Shown in pieces: positions 29,191-63,564 of a DNA stretch of 64,000 bases (position 1 is the stretch's first letter; each line of letters begins with the position of its first letter). The notes beneath the pieces were generated by a model, which was not told where the DNA came from, did no database searches, and worked only from the letters and a program-made list of their open reading frames with translations. This DNA comes from the human T2T-CHM13v2.0 reference genome, Homo sapiens. The position numbers were made by a program, and so were the translations under genes. The stretch lies in NCBI RefSeq assembly GCF_009914755.1, contig NC_060947.1; one strand, written 5' to 3'.

Positions 29191-30010
29191 AAATGTTAGC
29201 AAGGATGCAGAAAAAAGGGAATGCTTGCACATTGTTAGTGGGAATGTAAATTAGTGCAGCCATTATGGAAAACAGTATGGAGGTTCCTCAAAAAACTGAA
29301 AATAGAACTACCATATGATCCAGTAATCCCATTGCTGGGCATATATCCAAAAGAAACAAATCAGCATATTGAAGAGTTATCTGCACTTTATGTTTACTGC
29401 AGCACTATTCACAATAATCAAGAAGTGGAATCAATCTAAGTGTCCATGAACAAATGGATAAAGGAAATGTGGTATATGTACACAACGGAATACTATTTAG
29501 CCATAAAAGGGTGGAAATCCTGTCACTGTGACATTCATTTGGATGAATCTAAAGGACATTATGTCAAGTGAAATAAGCCAGGCACAAAAAGACAAATACC
29601 ACGTGATCTCACGTATATGTGGAATCTTAAAACGTTGAACTCATAGAAGTAGAGAGCAGAATGGTGGTTACCAGAGGCTAGGGGGTGAGGAGAGAGGGAA
29701 TGAGGAGTTGTTAATAAACAGGTCCAAAGTTTCAGACAGGCAGTAGGAATAGGTTTTGAGAGCTATTGCACAGCAGGGTGCAATAACAATGCATCATATA
29801 TTTCAAACTAAGAGGGTAAATTTCAAATGTCTCACCTTAAAAAATTGTAGGTAAGCAAGGTGATGGATATGTGAATTAGCTTGATCTAATCATTTCACAT
29901 TGTATATGTATATCAAAACATCACATTGTACCCCATAAATGTACACAATTATGATTTGTCAATCACAATAATATTAATAATTAAAAAAGAAAGAAAGGAA
30001 AGAAAAGAAA
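29191..30010 (+). mobile_element. 5'-truncated L1M (L1MA-class) 3' end, sense to GRIA3
   Basis: ORF2 C-terminal peptide [33 protein letters not shown] (ORF 29254..29439), then 3' UTR and an A-rich tail. Confidence 0.9.
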
Positions 30011-30541
30011 ATGGTTCTTGAAGAATGAAATTTCAATAGAGGCACCTAAAGTTGTAAGTAATAAAGTAGGGGCCCTTTGTAGGCAAAGAGAACAAAGATA
30101 CCAATGTTAAAAGAGTGCATGATGTGGCTAGAGCATGAGGTCTGTTGAAGGAAATGGTGTAGATGAGGCCAGGGGAGCAGAAGATAACAGATAATGGAAA
30201 TCCTTGAAAATGAAGTTAAGATATTTGGCTGTTAATAGAAAGTAGGGACTCATTGCAGTCCTTTGAGAAAGGAGTCTTATACACTAACTGGTATTTTAGG
30301 AAGGTAAATTTATTATGTGAAGAATAAACTGGAGAGGGAAAAAAAAAGAAATCAGAGCACCAACTAGGAAGCTAGGACAATAATCTAGGCCAGTGGTTCT
30401 CAAACCCTCTTGTACTTCAAAATCACCTGTTGAATTAGATGCTTGGGCCTCATACTCCGTAAGTCTAAATTAGAGAAAGGGATACAAAAAGAAGAGATTT
30501 TAAAGGAATGTAATCACCTTGCTTTGGGGCACATTCTTTTT

Positions 30542-31460
30542 TTATTTTTTTTAAGTGAAAGCAAGTTTATTAGGAAAGTAAAGGAACAAAGAATAGGCAG
30601 AGCAGCCCCTAGGGCTGCTGGTTGCCCATTTTTATGGTTATTTCTTGATTACATGTTAAACAAGGGGTGGATTATTCATGAGTTTTCTGGGAAAGTGGTG
30701 GACAATTCCCAGAACTGAGGGTTCCTCCCCATTTTAGACCATAGGGTAACTTCCTGACATTGCCACGGCATTTGTAAACTGTCATGGCGCTGGTGGGAGT
30801 GTAGCAATGAGGACAACCAGAGGTCGCTCTCATTGCTATCTTGGTTTTGGTGAGATTTAGCAGGCTTATCAGCAAGTTCTTTATGACCCATATCTTGTGC
30901 TGACCTCCTATATCATCCTGTGACTTAGAATGCCTAACCACCTCGGAATGCAGCCCAGTAGGTCTCAGCCTTATTTTACCCAGCCCCTACTCATGATGGA
31001 GTTGCTCTTGTTCAAATGCCTCTGACATTTCTCCTCTCCCTTTTATAAGAGAACCTTTAATCCTAAGGGTTCTCCTTCGTAGAAGGATGAAGATTCATCT
31101 TCTGTAACTTCTTTAGGCTGAATAGGGCAATGATATTCCCGCTTAACTATTGGTTCCCTTGCATTTGGGGTAGAGAGGAGCTCAGTCAAAATGCTGACTT
31201 GGTATGTCAAGGGCCATTTATAACTCTTGAGTTCCAACAAAAGGTGATATCTGGAAAATTATTAAGTGTTCAATTTAAGAGAACATTGAGTAAGCTTATC
31301 CTGCATTCCTACACGTAGAGTGTAACAGCAATATATTCCACAACAGTAAAGCAAAATAAGCCAAATTATTCCAAGTAAACTAAATAAGAAGGCTTTCCAT
31401 GAACTGGGAAACTGTTGGAACCAAGCTGATATGGGGTTGCTAGCTGACTCCAGTATGTAA
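30542..31460 (-). mobile_element. Processed (L1-mobilised) ERV1 copy: env-TM/3' internal region plus MER41B LTR U3-R plus poly(A)
   Basis: LTR start TGTCAGAGGC at 31027 preceded by a polypurine tract. The LTR stops after AATAAACTTGCTTTCACTT and runs into poly(A). 14-bp TSD ggcacattcttttt at 30528 and 31461. TM-like peptide WKAFLFSLLGIIWLILLYCC in ORF 31262..31483. Confidence 0.85.
30685..30714. promoter_or_regulatory. Tandem GAS (STAT) motifs TTCTGGGAA and TTCCCAGAA in MER41B
   Basis: Both fit TTCN3GAA (30685-30693, 30706-30714), at the position where MER41B carries STAT1 sites. Confidence 0.65.
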
Positions 31461-32028
31461 GGCACATTCTTTTTACAACGCACATGGAATATGTAAGTTA
31501 ATTTAGTCAGCAGGTGGTTAGAGAAGGGAGTTTTAGAGATATGAGAAGGTTTAATTGGAGAGTCATTGGTATCTTATTCAAAGTGAATTCAGGTTGAAAA
31601 TGCCAAAATAAAATAAGAAATTAATTTGTTTTACAGACTCTAAAGCCTCAAAATGTAACAAGTTCATTTTCTGAGGTATTTGTGTGGTAAATGTCATCCT
31701 TTTGAAAAAGCAGATTCTCAGAGCCCGACTTTATGAAAAATCATGAGTATCCCCATAGTCAAACACTCAAAATTAAAAATATAAAAAGGCAAATAAAAAA
31801 GAACAAAAAATTCTAATGTCTTTGGGTAGACGAGAAATGCCAGAAGAAGGTACTTGTTTTCAAGCAGAAAATGAACTGCTGAAGCAGTCTATGATTCAGT
31901 GAAGGGAGAAAGCAGTTGCTGCAAAACAGCTTAAACAAAAGGAACCATTGTTTCTCGCAAAAATATCAAGTCTACTGAAACACATTTTGTTTTCGGTAAA
32001 AATGCTATTTTAAAATATATTATTTTAA

Positions 32029-32457
<429 letters not shown>

Positions 32458-34058
32458 TTCTGGTTGTTGTTTGTTTGTTTGTTTGTTTTTTCTGAATAGT
32501 CGTCATTGGATGAGGAGTTCAGGTCAAGCATTTAAACCCTGAAACAAAAGTCAGAACAAACTAAAAAGACTTAAGAACATGAAACCAAATGTCAACTTTG
32601 TTTGAGCCAAGGACATGAATTAAAAAGTAAAAACTTGTAAAATCGTTTATCATGTATTTAAACTAGTAATCATATACTTTTTTCTAAAGACTTGGATTTT
32701 CTGATAATAAAAATATCTGTCTGTGTTCACATATATTGCTGTCTGGTCACTGCTCTACTTCTACTCACAACAGCATTCATTATACAAGGGAAAAAATGGA
32801 ATATAGGGAGGAGGCTGGGCTGTGGGACAGAGAGAAGTCTGAGTGACAGTAATTGGAGTGTGTCTGATAGGCAGATGCTTCATGGGACTAGTCGGAACTG
32901 ATTGGCTGAGGGAGCTATGTCCCACTCGTGGGTGTTATTATCAGAGAGGAGGAGTGAGAATGGAACTTTCTGGAAAAGGTCACATGATAAAGAGGACCAG
33001 TAAGAGGTAGCTTCACGAATGGAGTCTGAGCCAGCTAGCTATGGAGAATAATTTGACAGCTGGCAGGCAGACAGGTAGGATATGTACCTTCCTCTACTGC
33101 TCCCTACCCCTTAAAACCCCATCTCTTTCTGCTTTTACCTCTCGGGTCTGGGTATTGAAGGCCTAATGCTGTTTCATTCAATTTTTACAGAAGTTTTAGG
33201 AAACCAGGGACTCTAAATTCTCCGACATGGTGAACTGTGGGTGGCCATCTCCAACTGCTGGTGATGCCAGAAACGAAGGCAATGGGGAACCAGGAGGCAA
33301 TACACACCTTCCTTTAGCTAGAAGCTGTCTCCTAAAATATCTGTCTCTACATATTACCCCCACCCTTTCCCTTTCCACTTTTACCTAATGGCTTTCAAGT
33401 GACAAAAACTGTGTGGGCAATTTTACAAAAGTTTCAGAAAGGCCAGACATTTCAATTTCTCAAAAGAGTGAAGTGGCAAGTCCCACTGTAGATCATAATA
33501 CAAAAAAAAAAAAAAATTGGCCAAGAGCTAGGAAACTCTAATAATTTAGCTAATCATTTAGCCAGATTATATGAGCATTTAGCCAGATATTCATATAATA
33601 GCCATCTCTACATTCCTTAACCTTCTCCTGATAGAGATTGGTGCCGGATAGCAAATTCTGTTACAATAATTTTTTGGTAGGGTTTAAAGAAAACAGGGGA
33701 TCAAAATTCCCAAAAGTGCAGACTTTGGGTGGCAAACATCAAGTAAAAATTACCAAAAGGGAAAAAAGCAAAAAGGAGCCACTAACTTTTAATATCTCCC
33801 ACCCTTCCACTCTCTCCTCTCCTCCTTTCCCCTTTTACTTACTGTATGTGTGATACTCAGATCTGTTGATTTAATGTCTTAACAGAGGTTTTATGTGGAT
33901 TCTTCCTCAATTTTCCAAACTCAAGGACTGCGAATTGGAAGCTCACAAAAGGAAATGTAGCAACATGCTATGAGCAAGAATAATCATTTAAAATAAAAGG
34001 ATAGGCAGAAGAGAGCCAAGAGCCAGGCAACCTCTGTCCCATAGGCAAAACATCTCTC

Positions 34059-34104
34059 TTTTTTGTAGGCTAGTCAAGTGCAGCAGTGGGAGTACAGAAG
34101 GCAC
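34059..34104 (-). pseudogene. 5'-truncated Y RNA (RNY3-type) retrocopy
   Basis: aggctagtcaagtgcagcagtgggagtacagaaggcac is the reverse complement of the Y3 3' end, with a short T tail and degenerate TSD aac(a/t)t(c/t)tctctt. Confidence 0.75.
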
Positions 34105-35392
34105 TAGAACTTTTCTCTTAATACAACTATGCCTACCATTCATCCCTTTTTTCCCAGTTGCTCAGATCCTCAATTCCTGTCGAAGATTCGCTGGCCAGCT
34201 CTGCTGAATTAGTGTCTTTGCTGAGATGATAGGGAGCGTCTGGCCTCAATTTTCAAAATGTTGTATGCACTGTGCTTGTCCATGACTCCAATAATGTCTA
34301 GCGATATGTGAAAGAAAACAGAATATATTTTAAAACAATAGAGTAGAGGTGGAAGGTGGACTAAGAGCCAGGCATGTCTGCCTCTCAGCCAGCAACTGTC
34401 TCCGAACTTCCTTCTTTCTACTGTTATTCTTTACCTTTTTCTTTGATCTGTTTACCTATTTGATCTGTATGGTGGCCATTTCTGCTATGTTAGTTGTTTT
34501 ACAGAGGTTTTAGAGCTACTTGGCATTTATATCCAAACTTGAGGTCAGTGTGTTATCAACTCAAAAAAAGAAATCTAGCAAGAGTTATGGATAAGAGAAA
34601 TGTCTTAAAAATAATGAGATTCTAGGTGAATAAGGACCAGGAACCAGCCAACTTCTGCTCTTAGACAGGATCCCTACATTCTACCAGTGACCTTAATCCC
34701 TTTATTTTCCTTTTATCCTCTAGGTGTTCAGTGGACATTTCCACTGCATTAATGTCTTTATAGTGTTGAGTGGGACTTGGGTTCAGTATTCGCACCTACA
34801 ATTCGCAAGTGGTCAGCTAAAGAAGTGAAACCTAAAAATAATTTATGAACAAATGAAATGTCTTAAAGATATTGTGATAGGAGCCAAAACAGGATTAGGA
34901 GCCAGCAAACTGCTGTCCTTCATACAAAAGTGGTCTTCTAATAAGCCCCTTTTTAACACACACCCATCCTACTTTTCCTTCTCCCTCTTACTTCCAGGAT
35001 ATGGGGTGGTCACTGCTGCTGCATCAATTACCTACATGAAATTGTTGGGAGACTCTAATCTCAGTTTTCTATACACTGCTGACTGTATTTACTCATGTCA
35101 GCTACACCATTTAGCAATATGAGATGGAAAAGACAACATGCTTTGAATCACATTAGAAGGTACACAGGGAAACCAAGAGTAAGCCAACTTCTGCCCAATA
35201 GTCAGTACCACTCTCCTGCCTTCCTTCACTCTGCCAACGACCTTCACACATTTGTTTTTCCCATTTCCCTTTCAGGTTTTCAGTGGTCACTTCTGTTGCA
35301 TTATTTTGTTTATAGAGATTTCAGTGGGGCTTGGGAAAATATTCCCACCTGAATCTCTGCAGGTAATCAGAAGTAAGGCCTAGGAATAATGT

Positions 35393-40187
<4,795 letters not shown>

Positions 40188-41521
40188 CTAGGGATAATTT
40201 ATGAGCAATTAAAATGCTTTTAAATGATACGATAGGAAAATGAGCAGGATAAGAGGCAGCCAACTTCACTTTGGCCTTTTTTTAAACCCTCTTAAATTCT
40301 GGATATCTTTTAGTGTTCTCTGTTATATTAGTTCTTTGCTGTAATTGCCCAAATAATCCAGTCTCAGTTTTCTGGACCTGCAGACTGTATTTGCGGATAT
40401 CACCCTTAGAATCTAGCAATATGTGATGGAAAAGTGGCATGCTTTGGGCCACATTAGATGGGAAATAGATGAACCAGTAATCAGCCAACTCTCAACTTTA
40501 GTGAGCACTTATCTCCTAACTCTTCTTTATACCAATAACCTTTGCACATCTATTTTCACCTTTCATCTTCTAGATGTTCTGTGGTCATGTCTGTTGTCCT
40601 ATTTTATTTATAGAGATTTCAGTCAGCTCAGCCAGCTATTCCCACCTCTGAGTCTTCAAGTGGTCATCTCAAGAAATGAAAAACTAGCAACAGTTTGTGA
40701 ATAAGCTAAATGTCTTAAAGTGTTGTCATAGGCAATAAAGCAGGATCAAGAGCCAGCCAACCTGTAAAGTTTATGGAAAAATGGTCTCCTAATATTAACA
40801 GTCCTAGCATACCACTGTCCCCTTCTTTCATTCTCTATCTTATGTCCTGGATATTGGTTACTAAGCTCTGCCACATTAGTGTCTTTACTTATGTTGTCTG
40901 AAGAATCTAGTCTCACTTTCCTGCACCTTGCACACTTTATTTGTGCATGTCAACCATACAATCTAGAAATATGTGACAGAAAAAAAAACAAAATATTTTA
41001 AAATAGAATAGAAGCAAGTGAACTAGGAGGCAGACAACTCCTGCTATTCAGAAAAAAAATTGGGCTTTCAGTGTTTGCCTCTTGCCACAACCTGCCCTTT
41101 TCTTATTTACACCCTTACATCCTGGGTATTTGGTAGGAAACCATCTTATATTCGTGTCTTTGCTAAAGTTGGCATAAGAATCTAGTCTCGGTTTTCTGTA
41201 TCTGTAGACTGTGTTTGCACATATCATGATAGAATCTGGGAATATATGATAGAAAACATAATACACTTTGAACCATGTTAGAAAGGAAACTGGTGAATGA
41301 GGAGTCAGCCAACTCTTGCCCATCAGCCATCCCTTTTCTCCTAACTTCTTTATTTCTTCCAATGTTCTGAGTTTACTTTTCCCCTTTTATCTTTCAGGTA
41401 TTTAGTGGTCATTTCTGTTGTGTTATTTATATAGAGAGATCAGTAGGGTTGGGCCAAATATTCTCACATTTTGGTCTGCAAGTGGTCAGCTCAAGAAGTG
41501 AAACCTGGGAAGAGGTTATGA

Positions 41522-41965
<444 letters not shown>

Positions 41966-43093
41966 TCTTTTCGTTCACTCTTTTCCCTTGTGGATATTTG
42001 TTGGTCACTTCTGTTATATTACTTTCTTTGCTGAAGCTTTCCAGAGGCCGAAGTCTCTTTTGTAACTTGGAGTTTGTATTTGCATATATCAACAGTTGAA
42101 TCTAACAATTTGTGGTATAAAGACATGCTTGAACCCAAATTAAATGGAAATAGGTAAACCACGAAATAGCCAATTCCCTCCCATTAGTTGTAAGTTCCTT
42201 ATTTCTGTCTATGATATTTCTCATTTTATTTTCTCCTATTCCCACATGGATTTTTAAAATTATCTCTGTAACATTAGTATCTTTTGAGAGATTTGAGAGA
42301 GTTTCCACCTTGAAGTCTGAGGTCACAACATCAAACAGAGAAGCTTAGCAAGCATTATAGAAAAGTGAAATTCCTTAAAATAATTAAATAACAAGAAAGT
42401 ATGAACCATGAGCCAGCCAATTTTTGTCTTTGTGCCAAACTATTTATCCTAACTTCCATCATCCTTTATAGCCCCTCCATCATCACCATTCTATTGCCTT
42501 CCTTATACACTCTGGTTGTTGTCTGGGCTCTTGTCTGTGTTATTGTCTTTATATTGGTTTCAAGGATTCACAGCTCAGCTTTACCACCTTGACTACTGTG
42601 GGTGTCTTGCATGATGAAAAAGATTTAACAAGATAGTATAAAAATGTGTATTCCCTTAATATTTTTGGATTTTATAAAAAGAAGTTCCAGAAATCATACA
42701 CCTCCTGTCCTCTATCGAGATCCTCAATCCTAAAATAACTGTGATCCTCAGTCTCCCTATTTCACTTCACTTTTACATATATTCTCATGCTTGCTAAATG
42801 TTTCATGGTCACCTCTCCCCCATCAGTGTCTTTGCTAAGCCTGTGGGAAAAATCAGGCCTCTGTGTTCAATCTTGTGGACTACAGTTTCTTACAATACAA
42901 AGTAGCAGTTTATGAAGAAAAACAGCACGTGCATTACAAAACTTAATTCAGATGGAAGGTGGTCCAGATGCCAGCTGACTTCTACCATTTATTTAACACC
43001 TCTCTCCTAGCTTCCATCTTCTACTGCTGACCTTCTTTCCTCTATTTTCCCCTTTATCGTCCAAATGTTTAATATTCATTTTTGTAGTGCTAG

Positions 43094-43440
<347 letters not shown>

Positions 43441-43644
43441 CAACTTGAGGACCTTTTGTGGCCAACTCTTAAAGAGAAATCTAGCAAGAGTTGTGGGCAA
43501 GTGAAATACCTTAAAATAATGAGATAATAGGTGAAAATGGACCAAGAGTCAGCCAACTCCTGCCCTCAGCCAGAACTTGTATCCCAACTTTTAATTTCTA
43601 TAACTGCCTGTCACCTTTCTTTTCCCCTTCACTATTCAGATTAG

Positions 43645-43697
43645 TTTTTTTTTAATTTGTATAAATGTATGGGGTATAAGTGTAATTTTGTTACATA
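43645..43697 (-). mobile_element. Tiny L1 3'-terminal insertion
   Basis: T tail plus gtataaatgtatggggtataagtgtaattttgttacat. It accounts for the longer array period at this unit. Confidence 0.5.
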
Positions 43698-44354
43698 GTT
43701 AATTTTAAAACTCTACTGTCAGGAGTGGGATTGTTGAAGGTTATTTTTGTTGCATTAATCCCACCTCAAGGTCTCTGTGTAGCCACTTCTTGCAAGAAAT
43801 GAATTCTGGCAAGAGTTATGAACAAATTAAATGTCTTAAAATAATCATACAAGTGGAGAAAGTAAACCAGGAGCCAGCCAACTTCTCCCCTGAATCAGAA
43901 CATTTCTCCTAACTTCTATCACCCTACCACAACCCTCCCTGCCATCACCATTTTATTTCCCTTTTTATATACTCTATGTTTTATAGTGTCCTATACTGTT
44001 TTAGTGCCTTTACATTGATTTCAGGGATACATGGCCTCAATATAAACACCATGAGGGTTTTGTGTGTCCAATGACTAAAATCTAACATGCTATGGAAAAG
44101 TATGGTGCCTTAAAATTCGAAAGCAAAGAGGACCAGGAGCCTGACACCTCCTGCTCTTTAGCCCAAAACCATCTCTTGCTCTCTTCTCTCTTACCACTTT
44201 CTCCCCTTCTTTATTTCCTGTCTACTTGGTGTATGTTTGCTGGTCAGTTTTGTTGCATTAGTTATTGTATTAAATCTGTCGCTAAACTCAGGCCTCAATT
44301 CACAATTTTGCCAACTATGGTTGTACATGACAACAGCCTCTAGCAACTTGTTTT

Positions 44355-45709
44355 TTTTTTTTTTTTTTGTAAAATTTATTTTTTTATTATACTTTAAGTT
44401 TTAGGGTACATGTGCACAATGTGCAGGTTTGTTACATATGTATACATGTGCCATGTTGGTGTGCTGCACCCATTAACTCGTCATTTAGCATTAGGTATAT
44501 CTCCTACTGCTATCCCTCCCCCTCCCCCCACCCCACAACAGGCCCCGGTGTGTGATGTTCCCCTTCCTGTGTCCATGTGTTCTCATTGTTCAATTCCCAC
44601 CTATGAGTGAGAATATGCGGTGTTTGGTTTTCTGTCTTTGTGATAGTTTGCTCAGAATGATGGTTTCCAGCTTCATCCATGTCCCTACAAAGGACATGAA
44701 CTCATCCTTTTTTATGGCTGCATAGTATTCCATGGTGTATATGTGTCACATTTTCTTAATCCAGTCTATCACTGATGGACATTTGGGTTGGTTTCAAGTC
44801 TTTGCTATTGTGAATAGTGCCACAATAAACATATGTGTGCATGTGTCTTCATAGCAGCACGATTTATAATCGTTTGGGTATATACCCAGTAATGGGATGG
44901 CTGGGTCAAATGGTATTTCTAGTTCTAGATCCCTGAGGAATCGCCACACTGACTTCCACAATGGTTGAACTAGTTTACAGTCCCACCAACAGTGTAAAAG
45001 TGTTCCTATTTCTCCACATCCTCTCCAGCACCTGTTGTTTCCCGACTTTTTAATGATCACCATTCTAACTGGTGTGAGATGGTATCTCATTGTGGTTTTG
45101 ATTTGCATTTCTCTGATGGCCAGTGATGATGAGCATTTTTTTCATGTGTCTTTTGGCTGCATAAATGTCTTCTTTTGAGAAGGGACTGTTCATATCCTTC
45201 GCCCACTTTTTGATGGGGTTGTTGGTTTTTTTCTTGTAAATTTGTTTAAGTTCTTTGTAGATTCTGGATATTAGCCCTTTGTCAGACGAGTAGATTGCAA
45301 AAATTTTCTCCCATTCTGTAGGTTGCCTGTTCACTCTGATGGTAGTTTCTTTTGCTGTGCAGAAGCTCTTTAGTTTAATTAGATCCCATTTGTCAATTTT
45401 GGCTTTCATTGCCATTGCTTTTGGTGTTTTAGACATGAAGTCCTTGCCCATGCCTATGTCCTGAATTGTATTGCCTAGGTTTTCTTCTAGGGTTTTTATG
45501 GTTTTAGGTCTAACATTTAAGTCTTTAATCCATCTTGAATTAATTTTCGTATAGGGTGTAAGGAAGGGATGCAGTTTCAGCTTTCTACATACGGCTGGCC
45601 AGTTTTCCCAGCACCATTTATTAAATAGGGAATCTTTCCCCATTTCTTGTTTTTGTCAGGTTTGTCAAAGATCAGATAGTTGTGGATATGTGGCATTATT
45701 TCTGAGGGG
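44355..45709 (-). mobile_element. 5'-truncated L1PA (L1PA3/4-like)
   Basis: ORF2 C-terminal peptides (ORFs 44794..45108, 45065..45643). TSD tagcaacttgtttt at 44341 and 45710. Confidence 0.95.
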
Positions 45710-48414
45710 TAGCAACTTGTTTTAGAAGAAAAAAAGTTCCATGTTTTTAAAAAATGAAATAGATGTAAGAGGTTGAGAGAAGCCAGCAAAGTCTTCCTCC
45801 TTGGCCATCTCTTCTCTCTGAACTTCCATCCATCTATCTATATATTTTATTCTCATCTCTTTTATGTTAGTGTCTTTAGGGAGGTTTTAAGAAACTCAGC
45901 TTCAGTTTTATCTCCTTGAAAACTGTGATCCAACAGCCTAAGGAGAAAATCTAACAAGAGGTTATGGGGTCAGTAAAATGCCTTAAAACAATGACATTCT
46001 GTACTAGGAGAAGGAAGACAAGAAGCCAGCCAGCTCCTCTACCTTAGCCCACACATCTCTCCTAACCTCCATCTTCCTACCACTGACCCTTACCTTTTTA
46101 TTTACTCCATTTTTATTTCTGGATATTATATCATCACCTGTGCTGTGTGAGTATCTTTACATTGGTTTGGGGGGACCATTGGCCTGCCTTAGGGTTATAA
46201 GTGTCATAACCATAAAAATTCATCAAAGATTATTATGGAAAGGAGTAATGTCTTAAAATGTTAGGATAAGAAGTGAAAGAGACCTAGAAGCCAAACAAAT
46301 CCTGCCCTTGTACAGTACCTCTCTCCTAATTTCCATCATCCCTCTCTACCTTTTCTCCTTTCCCCTCTTACTGTTGAATATCAGCTCTGCTGTGTTAGTG
46401 TCTCTGAAGAGGCTGTGGAGAGAATCAGTCTTTAATTTTTGCAATATCATGGACTGTCAGTGGTCACTTAAAGAGTGGAATTTAGCAATAGTTGATACAA
46501 AAGGAAAAGTCTTTATAATAAAAAAGGTATCAGAAAAAGAAAGATGACGAAGAGTCAACAAACTCCTGTCTTTGGCTTGACAATTTTCCTTATATCCACC
46601 TGTCTATTACTCATTTCCCTTCTCTTTTCCTCTTCTACTTCTTTGATACTTATTAATCAGTTCTGCTGCATTAGTGTTTCTTCAGAAGGTTTAGGGAAAA
46701 ATCCAGCCTTGATCATCTCAACCTTGAGGACTATTGGTTGCTCTATCTAAATGCTGGGAACCAGAGTGACAAACAAGTCATAGAATCTGAAGAAAGATAA
46801 CAAGCAAAATGTACACAAATGGGACAGAGGGAGAAGTAGGACCAGGATCCAGTTAACTCTTGCCCTTTAGTAACAAGATCTTTCCTTTCATCTCCCTAAA
46901 CACCTGTTACCTTCTTTCTTTTTTCACCTCACTTCTGCTCTCTTCACCTTGCCAAAGGGGCTGTTAGTGCTTTCTGTCCATATGGCCTGGTAAGCTGTAA
47001 TGGCCCTCAGTAGGAGCTAGTGGTGTGGAGGTCTTGCCAGCTAAAAAAAAAGCAGGTTGTGATGACCTCCCCCTGGTTTAATCTGTGCTGCTGTGGACAC
47101 ATTTTATCCCATGAGCACAGCCAGGCTAATGCCAATTTGCAGTGTGCCAGAACTCATTCCCGGGATGTCTGTCAAAAAACATTAGTCGACTGAGAGACTT
47201 CTAGTTCCTCAGTGATATGGTTGAGGTTGGGTATAGAGATAAGTGCACTGTATTCCTATAAAGGTGTTTCCAAATCACAATGTGTTTATTGGAGATCAAG
47301 ACACCCAGGTGGGAATTTGTGGGGTGTATGCGGCAGGATGAAGCTTCCTGGGAGCAAGGGGTGGTAATTTTTGAGGTGTATTTGAGGTGGACATCTCCTT
47401 TTAGTTTCTCTGCCAGAAAAAGGGTAATTAGGCAAATCTTCAAGAAAAGAGTGGTACAGTAGACAATAACCAGACTGAATTGCTGGCTCTTAGGCCTTAA
47501 GGCAGAAAGTGAGATTTGGGGGACCCTTTCTCCCTCGCTTTTGCTAATTCTACATTGCCATTTTAACATGCTATGAATATTAGGTAAACAGGAGTATGAA
47601 GCTTATCAAAGTGAGAGATACTGCTTTCTAGTGCATGCTGTGCCTATTGACCCTGAGGACTGTAATGGTGGCAGAAGCATTCACAACCCCTTTCTCTCAA
47701 GAAAGATGGCTCTACTTTTCCAGCCCAGGCTTTTAAGATACAGGCCAAGCACAAGAGATCCCATCCTTCACCCACAACAGCAGGTCAATGGGCAGTTGGT
47801 CAATTTTCTTATGTAATATTTGTTAACTGCCAAATGTGGTTAGGCATGGTAAATGAATTAAAGCTATTCATTAAAGATTTTAAATGATACATATTTGTAC
47901 ATATCTGTAGGGTATATGTGATATATTGTCACATGCATAGAATTGTAATGATCAAATCAGTGAATTTAGGATATCCAACACCTTGAGTATTTATCATTTC
48001 TGTGTGTTCGGAACATTTCAAGACCCCTCTTCTGGCTACTATGAAATACACAATACATTGTTGTTAACTATAATTACCCTACTCTGCTATTGAACAAGAG
48101 AACTTTTCCCTTCTATCTAACTGTATGTTTATACTCATTAACCAGCCTCTCTTCATCCTGCCCCCTCTCTCACCCTTCCCAGCCCCTACTAACTATCATT
48201 CTACTCTCTACTTCCGTGAGATCAAAATTTTTAGCTCCCAGATATGAGTGAAAATATACAATATTTGTCTTTCTGAGCATGGCTTATTTCACTTAACATA
48301 ATGACCTCCAGTTCCATCCACGTTGCTGCAAATGACATGATTTCATTCTTGTTTATGGCCAAATAGTTGTCCATTGTGTGTATATACCACATTTTTTGAA
48401 GGCCATTAAACTTT

Positions 48415-50532
<2,118 letters not shown>

Positions 50533-59584: not shown

Positions 59585-59860
<276 letters not shown>

Positions 59861-63279: not shown

Positions 63280-63564
<285 letters not shown>

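What the first reader, a model, noticed from the sequence alone, without database searches (positions are those of the whole stretch)
33100..46930. Hidden ancient ~270-bp tandem array (~26 units) inside a GRIA3 intron
Seen: a motif with consensus GGACCAGGAGCCAGCCAACTCCTGCCC recurs at about 33290, 33523, 33776 (these three faint), 34020, 34365, 34641, 34899, 35177, 40253, 40478, 40750, 41027, 41301, 41570, 42163, 42410, 42690, 42967, 43546, 43870, 44137, 45779, 46022, 46287, 46551 and 46845. Each copy is followed by a C/T-rich stretch, then GTGGTCA..TCTG..GCATTAGTGTCTTT, and AATCTAGCAAGAGTTATG..AAATGTCTTAAAA leads into the next copy. After removing the TSD-bounded insertions (L1MA with nested L1PA, AluY, AluS, L1PA, Y RNA, tiny L1), spacing is ~225-295 bp and the net array is ~7 kb. 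It matches no interspersed repeat or satellite I recognise, and it may be too diverged for default tandem-repeat finders. Inference: it predates the L1MA insertion into it, so it is probably older than the simian radiation.
Basis: partly seen in the sequence, partly recalled or inferred. Interest (0 to 1): 0.85.

Follow-up and report, generated by a model that had tools for sequence, protein, structure and literature searches.

The report
Ancient decayed 272-bp tandem array, GRIA3
A GRIA3 intron holds a real but badly worn head-to-tail array of about 27 copies of a 272-base unit, with a small sister array 62 kb downstream, and it looks like an old neutral relic, not a working element.

Summary
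Profile searches find about 27 units of ~272 bp, all on the + strand and in register, between 33103 and 46936. They appear nowhere else in the window. A reversed-sequence control over 264 kb gave 0 hits at E<=0.01. With the insertions removed (about 7.0 kb net), autocorrelation peaks near 275, 550, 825, 1085, 1350 and 1625. Tandem Repeats Finder misses the array.

Units are 41-71% identical to each other, mean 53%. CpG is at 0.10 of expectation. Site rates are nearly uniform, and there is no coding frame and no maintained hairpin.

Six insertions interrupt the array. The four large ones (two L1, two Alu) have target-site duplications.

New here: a sister array of 5-6 units with paralogous flanks lies at window coordinates ~107,600-109,800, still inside GRIA3. 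A profile scan of 314 kb found no third array, and genome BLAST found no other copy.

Unit end branches (median 0.27 substitutions per site) are about 2.5 times the ~0.11 of the old L1 that split a unit. That puts the last amplification near or before the placental radiation.

Most likely reading: a fossil, locus-specific tandem array. Dfam and other mammalian genomes could not be searched.

The parts
33103..34059 (+). Array segment 1: worn units 1-4 (model hits 33117-33251, 33311-33470, 33596-33769, 33777-34017) and the start of unit 5 (34020-34059)
   Evidence: nhmmer and cmsearch hits, E 1e-15 to 1e-42. The left limit was confirmed with filters off.
34060..34105 (-). Inserted 46-bp fragment resembling the 3' end of a Y RNA; it splits unit 5
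   Evidence: Rfam Y_RNA on the minus strand, 20.9 bits (gathering 38), E 0.03 in a 161-base search. Genome BLAST lists 29 dispersed copies at 82-93% identity. The unit model resumes at 34105 at model position 27.
34106..35392 (+). Array segment 2: rest of unit 5, units 6-8 (34365, 34641, 34899) and most of unit 9 (35177-35392)
   Evidence: Hits at E 1e-34 to 1e-54.
35393..40183 (-). Old L1 3' portion, poly-A side at the left, carrying a nested younger L1 (about 37543-39668); it splits unit 9
   Evidence: Diverged target-site duplication of about 21 bp at both ends. 35828-37592 versus 37809-39569 is 70.7% identical, and 37583-38909 versus 44348-45707 is 91.4%. The outer L1 is 77-83% identical to its best genomic copies over the long matches (40 scored of 21,033 candidates).
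40184..41663 (+). Array segment 3: tail of unit 9, units 10-14 (40253, 40478, 40750, 41027, 41302) and the start of unit 15 (41573-41663)
   Evidence: Hits at E 1e-28 to 1e-56. The motif at 40253 is readable.
41664..41962 (-). Alu insertion splitting unit 15
   Evidence: Poly-T at the left and a 14-bp target-site duplication with 1 mismatch. Sub-threshold Rfam SRP-like hits on the minus strand.
41963..43139 (+). Array segment 4: rest of unit 15, units 16-18 (42163, 42410, 42690) and the start of unit 19 (42970-43139)
   Evidence: Hits at E 1e-27 to 1e-41.
43140..43422 (-). Alu insertion splitting unit 19
   Evidence: Poly-T at the left and a target-site duplication of about 12 bp. Sub-threshold Rfam SRP-like hits on the minus strand.
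43423..44346 (+). Array segment 5: rest of unit 19, units 20-21 (43546, 43871) and most of unit 22 (44137-44346). Unit 20 carries a small dispersed fragment at about 43630-43708.
   Evidence: Hits at E 1e-20 to 1e-44. The fragment has 289 genomic candidates, of which 40 were scored, at 85-98% identity.
44347..45710 (-). Younger L1 3' fragment splitting unit 22
   Evidence: Poly-T at the left and a target-site duplication of 10-14 bp. It is 91.4% identical to the nested L1 at 37583-38909.
45711..46936 (+). Array segment 6: inferred tail of unit 22 (45711-45780), units 23-26 (45781, 46024, 46289, 46552) and truncated unit 27 (46848-46936)
   Evidence: Hits at E 1e-36 to 1e-45, and 6e-07 for the last unit. 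The 70-bp tail of unit 22 is inferred from its length only; the model does not hit it.
32810..32911 (+). Left flank that is paralogous to the left flank of the sister array. The sister block lies OUTSIDE the window at window-style coordinates 107592-109775 (G000:C23:121751592-121753775) and consists of a left flank, a mini-array of 5-6 units at 107817-109296, and a right flank.
   Evidence: 69.9% identity over 103 bp to window-style coordinates 107592-107694. In the sister array the profile hits reach E 7e-45 after iteration, all on the + strand.
47332..47808 (+). Right flank that is paralogous to the right flank of the sister array (47332-47599 strongly, 47760-47808 weakly)
   Evidence: 72.2% identity over 291 bp to window-style coordinates 109310-109599. 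It is the only other match in the whole genome, E 1e-37. A colinear 51-bp piece is 76% identical.

Best explanation
This is a fossil, locus-specific tandem array. A ~272-bp stretch of ancestral GRIA3 intron was multiplied head to tail. Unequal exchange or replication slippage is the inferred mechanism; that part is not shown here.

A small early array together with its flanks was then copied once to a site now 62 kb downstream in the same gene. Each copy went on amplifying separately. In the main array this produced alternating A/B units in the left-central part (a ~545-bp two-unit period) and an A0-C-B2-like order on the right.

Amplification and homogenisation then stopped. This was probably near or before the placental radiation. 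Since then both arrays have decayed at close to the neutral rate, and the main one has taken up L1, Alu and small retro-fragments. I see no sign that it does anything today.
For: Tandem and in register. All profile hits are on the + strand and head to tail. Autocorrelation peaks at about 275 bp and at multiples up to about 1625. Half-unit and third-unit sub-models hit only in register, so there is no shorter hidden period.

Subtypes. The tree of 23 units gives clade A {34641, 35177, 40480, 41302} with support 98/95, clade B {34899, 40269, 40750, 41027, 41573} with 100/99, and clade C {42410, 43871, 46024} with 99/97. A and B alternate along 34641-41573.

Near-star tree. Internal branches make up 14% of total tree length.

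Decay looks neutral. CpG count is 26 against 254.6 expected. The gamma shape is 6.7 and the slowest rate class is 0.56 of the mean. Stop-to-stop frames reach at most 112 aa in pure array sequence. The 6-bp inverted repeat in the junction motif is kept (5 or more of 6 pairs) in 4 of 22 units. Rfam finds nothing in the units.

Age. The unit end-branch median is 0.27. The old L1 stands at about 0.11 per lineage, the Alus at about 0.10 and the young L1 pair at about 0.05.

Sister array. It has colinear flanks at 70-72% identity, which is 0.17-0.19 per lineage. Three of its four usable units cluster together with support 93/89, outside clades A, B and C.

Not an abundant interspersed family. All five array pieces (7,110 bp) and the sister block were BLASTed against the 3.1-Gb genome, and the unit sequence matched only this locus. 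A profile scan of 314 kb found only the two arrays plus one marginal 42-nt hit at E 0.009.
Against: The genome BLAST missed the sister array and found it only through its flank. Copies at about 55-70% identity elsewhere in the genome therefore cannot be excluded.

Rate variation among sites is small but statistically real: 2 x delta lnL = 26.8 for 1 degree of freedom. The best-kept block is the GC-rich 5' motif in an AT-rich setting, which is not what AT-biased decay predicts. It could equally be an alignment-anchor effect.

No other species could be examined. Both neutrality and the age rest on within-genome comparisons, and on substitution rates recalled from memory.

Misalignment of very diverged units inflates branch lengths.
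Confidence: 0.7

Rival explanations
1. Both blocks are two insertions of a rare, old mobile or composite element that carried an internal tandem-repeat region. Local re-insertion of a DNA transposon is one example. On this reading the 'flanks' are the element's non-repetitive ends.
For: The two blocks lie in different introns, because the exons at 59681-59842 and 63358-63525 sit between them. They have the same orientation, and homologous sequence lies on both sides of each array. That pattern fits a dispersed copy, not a simple tandem duplication. The flank divergence of 0.17-0.19 per lineage falls in the era when, by recall, many mammalian DNA transposons were active.
Against: The right flank has exactly one other match in the whole genome, and the left flank and the units have none. 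A family of two copies is not a typical transposon. Comparing the left and right flanks of either copy showed no terminal inverted or direct repeats; the best hits were 18 bp at E 0.26 or worse. The ends of the paralogous block could not be defined, so target-site duplications could not be sought.
Confidence: 0.15
2. The arrays are maintained functional elements of GRIA3. Each unit puts a ~90-nt pyrimidine-rich tract and a GC-rich motif on the sense strand. About 27 + 6 copies could then act as a binding platform on the long pre-mRNA or on chromatin.
For: Two arrays have persisted in the same gene in sense orientation for what appears to be about 100 Myr or more. The 5' motif block is the best-conserved part of the unit in both arrays. 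Rate heterogeneity is statistically significant.
Against: Rates are nearly uniform (alpha 6.7), and the slowest class still runs at 0.56 of the mean. Units average 53% pairwise identity. Insertions totalling about 6.8 kb have been tolerated inside units. The junction hairpin is not maintained. There is no Rfam match. Transitions alone would keep a C/T-rich tract pyrimidine-rich. Old neutral DNA of this age is common in the human genome (established knowledge, recalled).
Confidence: 0.1
3. The periodicity is a chance or low-complexity artefact.
For: Tandem Repeats Finder reports nothing. Identities are low, with a mean column identity of 50%.
Against: Hits have E-values down to 1e-56, are confined to one strand, and occur at only two places in 314 kb. 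The reversed-sequence control gave 0 hits at E<=0.01. The autocorrelation peaks stand about 3-5 sd above the shuffle mean after smoothing.
Confidence: 0.01

Closest known systems
Single-locus minisatellite or satellite-like tandem repeats with units of a few hundred bp, including higher-order-repeat organisation
   Same: Head-to-tail copies on one strand with a constant period of about 272 bp. Subtypes alternate like a two-unit higher-order repeat. The inferred origin is unequal exchange.
   Different: Extreme decay: mean pairwise identity is 53% and there is no sign of ongoing homogenisation. Catalogued arrays are usually found because their copies are alike. The survey of the largest human tandem repeats used Tandem Repeats Finder (PMC2588610; I saw only the search listing and the start of the abstract), and that program misses this array.
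X-linked macrosatellites that bind CTCF on the inactive X (DXZ4, FIRRE, ICCE)
   Same: A tandem array on the X chromosome, in or near genes.
   Different: Those have kilobase-scale or highly homogeneous units, and their sequence turns over fast between species (PMC3491370; start of abstract only). This array has 272-bp units and has not been homogenised for a very long time. I saw no convincing CTCF-like core by eye, and I ran no position-weight-matrix scan.
Tandem repeats derived from transposable elements
   Same: A unit of TE-like size, a second dispersed copy with shared flanks, and an age similar to old mammalian repeats.
   Different: No multi-copy family was found in the genome. The L1 and Alu sequences here are later insertions bounded by target-site duplications, in the opposite orientation. 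Context paper: PMC3389668, search listing and start of abstract only.
Ancient, decayed repeat-derived regions that standard annotation misses
   Same: Old repeat-derived DNA that default tandem-repeat tools do not see.
   Different: The cited work concerns simple-sequence repeats with very short units (PMC7027126; search listing and start of abstract only). Here the unit is 272 bp.

Membership tests
Tandem repeat array (minisatellite or satellite-like) | Adjacent head-to-tail copies of one unit on one strand, in register | tested here: met
   27 units, all on the + strand, each starting where the previous one ends. Sub-models hit only in register.
Tandem repeat array (minisatellite or satellite-like) | A constant period visible as repeated diagonals or autocorrelation peaks | tested here: met
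   Peaks at about 275, 550, 825, 1085, 1350 and 1625 bp once the insertions are excised.
Higher-order repeat organisation | Distinct unit subtypes recurring in a fixed order | tested here: inconclusive
   Clades A and B (support 98/95 and 100/99) alternate across 34641-41573, with one extra B. An A0-C-B2-like order on the right is only partly supported. Mean identity is 0.549 at lag 2 against 0.519 at lag 1.
Interspersed repeat / transposable element family | Many dispersed copies in the genome | tested here: not met
   BLAST of all 7,110 bp of array, both flanks and the sister block found two loci only. The 27-mer with up to 3 mismatches gave 3 array hits and 1 chance hit on C2, which was checked. 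Sensitivity is limited to roughly 70% identity or more.
Interspersed repeat / transposable element family | Match to a curated consensus (Dfam or Repbase) | not testable with these tools
   No transposon library was available.
Interspersed repeat / transposable element family | Terminal repeats or target-site duplications bounding the block | tested here: inconclusive
   Comparing the left and right flanks of either copy showed no inverted or direct terminal repeat, but the true ends of the block are unknown.
Tandem monomers at the 5' end of an L1 | Array joined, in the same orientation, to an L1 body and present in many L1 copies | tested here: not met
   The L1s here lie on the opposite strand and are bounded by target-site duplications inside units. 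The units have no genomic copies beside L1s.
X-linked CTCF-binding macrosatellite (DXZ4 / FIRRE / ICCE type) | Large and/or homogeneous units with CTCF sites and Xi-specific chromatin | tested here: not met
   The unit is 272 bp and mean pairwise identity is 53%, so the homogeneity criterion is not met. CTCF binding and chromatin state cannot be tested here.
Structured RNA or miRNA cluster | Match to a known RNA family, or a maintained secondary structure | tested here: not met
   Rfam at E<=1 hits only the Alus and L1. The junction hairpin is kept in 4 of 22 units.

The most novel reading that the evidence does not exclude
The main array and its sister array are a pair of very old, mammal-wide sense-strand arrays in two GRIA3 introns that have been kept because they work. 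One possibility is that they act as multi-site platforms for pyrimidine-tract or motif-binding proteins on the long neuronal pre-mRNA. Another is that they act as a recombination or chromatin element. The best-kept motif, read on the other strand, contains a string that I recall as close to the classical minisatellite core, but that is a recalled resemblance and was not tested.
Probability: 0.05. Interest if true: 0.65.

Novelty: new member of a known kind. Interest (0 to 1): 0.3.

Why it matters
This is a clean example of repeat-derived DNA that standard tandem-repeat finders miss: 7 kb of an intron of a disease-relevant X-linked neuronal gene that would otherwise count as 'unique' sequence.

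Its internal subtypes, its sister copy and its dated insertions record the stages of an array's life, from amplification through local duplication and arrest to decay.

If the orthologous introns of other mammals carry it, it would be a useful marker for calibrating array turnover and neutral rates on the X. As it stands it is most likely inert, and a repeat specialist would find it only modestly surprising.

Tried and rejected
- Tandem Repeats Finder at a low threshold found nothing with a period near 270.
- The single outside match of the 27-mer, on contig C2, was fetched and tested. It is the motif only (5.6 bits), with no array and no periodicity, so I take it as chance.
- I wanted to pick a second consensus-derived pattern for a genome scan.
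- The profile does not recognise either paralogous flank as a worn unit, despite a resemblance by eye (best hit E 1.4). I therefore call them flanks.
- The unit has no hidden shorter period, no coding frame and no maintained junction hairpin.
A 50-kb request succeeded and added only one marginal 42-nt hit.
- Literature searches: GRIA3 with 'tandem repeat' and 'intron' returned 29 papers, of which 15 were listed and none was pertinent by title. GRIA3 with 'tandemly repeated' returned 1 irrelevant paper. GRIA3 with CHM13 and 'repeat' returned 1 paper, and its one passage naming GRIA3 is irrelevant. The six-term search listed no paper that holds GRIA3. I found no description of this array in these searches. 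Subscription journals and repeat databases were not covered.

Full report
**Observation**

A 15-base core with up to 3 substitutions matches 11 times, all between 34645 and 46850. Self-BLAST of 30000-50000 shows + strand pairs of 67-79% identity at offsets of 257, 275, 325, 548 and 821 bp, and at larger offsets that span the insertions.

One unit used as an nhmmer seed found 19 hits. The iterated profile found 31, all on the + strand and within 33094-46929. I aligned 17 near-complete units (363 columns, mean column identity 50%) and built a sequence-only covariance model from them. Over the whole window that model gives 30 matches at E<1e-4, all on the + strand and inside 33110-46936.

With filters off, nothing lies beyond 33103 on the left or 46936 on the right. 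A reversed-sequence control over 264 kb gives no hit at E<=0.01. After cutting out the insertions, base-match autocorrelation of the 7.0-kb array shows regular peaks near 275, 550, 825, 1085, 1350 and 1625 bp. Tandem Repeats Finder at minimum score 30 reports no period above 17 in 32000-48000.

**Anatomy**

I count 27 units: 26 plus a truncated last one. Net length is 7,051 bp, GC is 0.38, and there are 26 CpG against 254.6 expected. The other four lie in units with worn or deleted 5' parts that still hit in register. Half-unit and third-unit sub-models hit only in register, so 272 bp is the true monomer.

Six insertions interrupt the array:
- a 46-bp piece at 34060-34105 that weakly matches the 3' end of Y RNA on the minus strand (20.9 bits, E 0.03 in a 161-base search);
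- a 4.8-kb old L1 with a younger L1 nested in it (35393-40183);
- two Alus (41664-41962 and 43140-43422);
- a small dispersed fragment at about 43630-43708 (289 genomic candidates);
- a 1.4-kb L1 fragment (44347-45710).

Target-site duplications are readable for both Alus and both L1s, and the model resumes after each insertion where it broke off.

**Internal structure**

Among the 23 units with at least 190 aligned columns, pairwise identity averages 53% and ranges from 41 to 71%. Identity to a majority consensus averages 67%.

A maximum-likelihood tree has three well-supported clades:
- clade A: 34641, 35177, 40480, 41302 (support 98/95);
- clade B: 34899, 40269, 40750, 41027, 41573 (support 100/99);
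- clade C: 42410, 43871, 46024 (support 99/97).

A and B alternate from 34641 to 41573, with one extra B, which gives a two-unit period of about 545 bp. On the right an A0-C-B2-like order recurs, but support for it is weaker. The array therefore grew in at least two stages: first monomers, which diverged, then multi-unit blocks.

**Signs of function: none found**

Internal branches are 14% of tree length. A gamma model does fit better than equal rates (lnL -5483.4 against -5496.8), but the shape is 6.7 and the slowest class runs at 0.56 of the mean. Pure array sequence has no stop-to-stop frame above 112 aa. Rfam at E<=1 hits only Alu and L1 parts. The 6-bp inverted repeat in the junction motif is kept in 4 of 22 units.

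**Age**

Unit end branches are 0.17-0.41 substitutions per site, median 0.27. In the same window:
- the old L1 that split unit 9 is 77-83% identical to its best genomic relatives over the long matches (40 scored of 21,033 candidates), about 0.11 per lineage;
- the Alus stand at about 0.10;
- the young L1 pair stands at about 0.05.

The last amplification is thus roughly 1.5-4 times older than that L1. With recalled dates for such L1s (tens of millions of years), this points to a time near or before the placental radiation. Misalignment inflates these distances, and the rates are recalled, so this is only an estimate.

**A sister array**

BLAST of the right flank (46937-47886) against the window's own genome found one other match. 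It is 72% identical over 291 bp and lies at window-style coordinates 109310-109599.

Directly upstream of that match the array profile finds 5-6 units at 107817-109296 on the + strand, with E down to 7e-45 after iteration. Upstream again, 107592-107694 matches the main array's left flank 32810-32911 at 70%. A further colinear 51-bp piece lies on the right. The profile does not recognise either flank as a unit.

The block lies inside the GRIA3 span given by the hub. It is in a different intron from the main array, because two exons lie between them. I did not map the exons downstream of the window.

Three of the four usable sister units cluster together (support 93/89) near the main array's edge units and outside clades A, B and C. 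This suggests that each array amplified on its own after the copy was made. Flank divergence of 0.17-0.19 per lineage resembles that within clade A.

**Is it a known or dispersed family?**

All five array pieces (7,110 bp), both flanks and the sister block were BLASTed against the 3.1-Gb genome. Unit sequence matched only this locus. The outside matches were the two small inserted fragments and the one flank paralogue described above.

The 27-mer with up to 3 mismatches gave 3 array hits and one hit on another chromosome. I fetched that hit and found it to be the motif alone.

A profile scan of 314 kb covering nearly all of GRIA3 found only the two arrays and one marginal 42-nt hit at E 0.009. 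The unit therefore does not belong to any abundant old family, since such families would be present many times in 314 kb (recalled densities).

The caveat is serious. The genome BLAST itself missed the sister array, so rare copies at 55-70% identity could exist elsewhere. The profile could not be run genome-wide, and no Dfam library or other mammalian genome was available.

**Literature**

Searches combining GRIA3 with tandem-repeat terms found no description of this array. For the context papers cited as closest known kinds I saw only the search listings and the starts of their abstracts.

**Verdict**

The most likely explanation (0.7) is a fossil, locus-specific tandem array with one local duplicate, now decaying neutrally. 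The rivals are a rare mobile element with internal repeats (0.15), a maintained functional array (0.1) and chance (0.01).

It is a new member of a known kind and of modest interest.

Noticed in passing
window-style coordinates 107592-109775 (G000:C23:121751592-121753775; loci L004 and L009): A sister mini-array of 5-6 units with paralogous left and right flanks lies 62 kb downstream in another part of GRIA3. It is more GC-rich (0.44) than the main array and has 2 CpG against 71 expected.
   Followed up: yes
window 34060-34105 (-): A 46-bp inserted fragment aligns to the 3' end of Rfam Y_RNA below the gathering score (20.9 bits against 38). Genome BLAST lists 29 dispersed copies at 82-93% identity.
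   Followed up: partly
window 43630-43708: A small dispersed fragment of about 55-80 bp sits inside unit 20. It has 289 genomic candidates at 85-98% identity.
   Followed up: partly
L028 8710-8751 (window-style coordinate about -111,290): An isolated 42-nt match to unit positions 9-50 (E 0.009 in 50 kb) lies in an upstream GRIA3 intron. It has no neighbouring units and is probably chance.
   Followed up: partly
L003 4919-4969 (G000:C2:15553211-15553237): This is the only genome match of the 27-mer outside the array (3 mismatches). It is the motif alone, with no related unit or periodicity around it.
   Followed up: yes
unit junctions, e.g. window 41564-41590 and 43539-43565: Read on the minus strand, the best-kept motif contains an 8-base string that I recall as part of the classical minisatellite core. 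It is intact in 3 main-array units and 2 sister-array units, and it occurs once on each strand in the other 50 kb of the window. The resemblance is recalled and was not tested.
   Followed up: partly
window 41779-41830, 43255-43306, 32272-32323 (-) and 32196-32255, 43179-43238 (+): Sub-threshold Rfam hits to mir-1268 and mir-3135 fall inside Alu elements. They are most likely Alu-derived look-alikes.
   Followed up: no
window 35393-40183: The old L1 carries a nested younger L1 (about 37543-39668) that is 91.4% identical to the separate L1 fragment at 44348-45707. Both are of similar, later age.
   Followed up: partly
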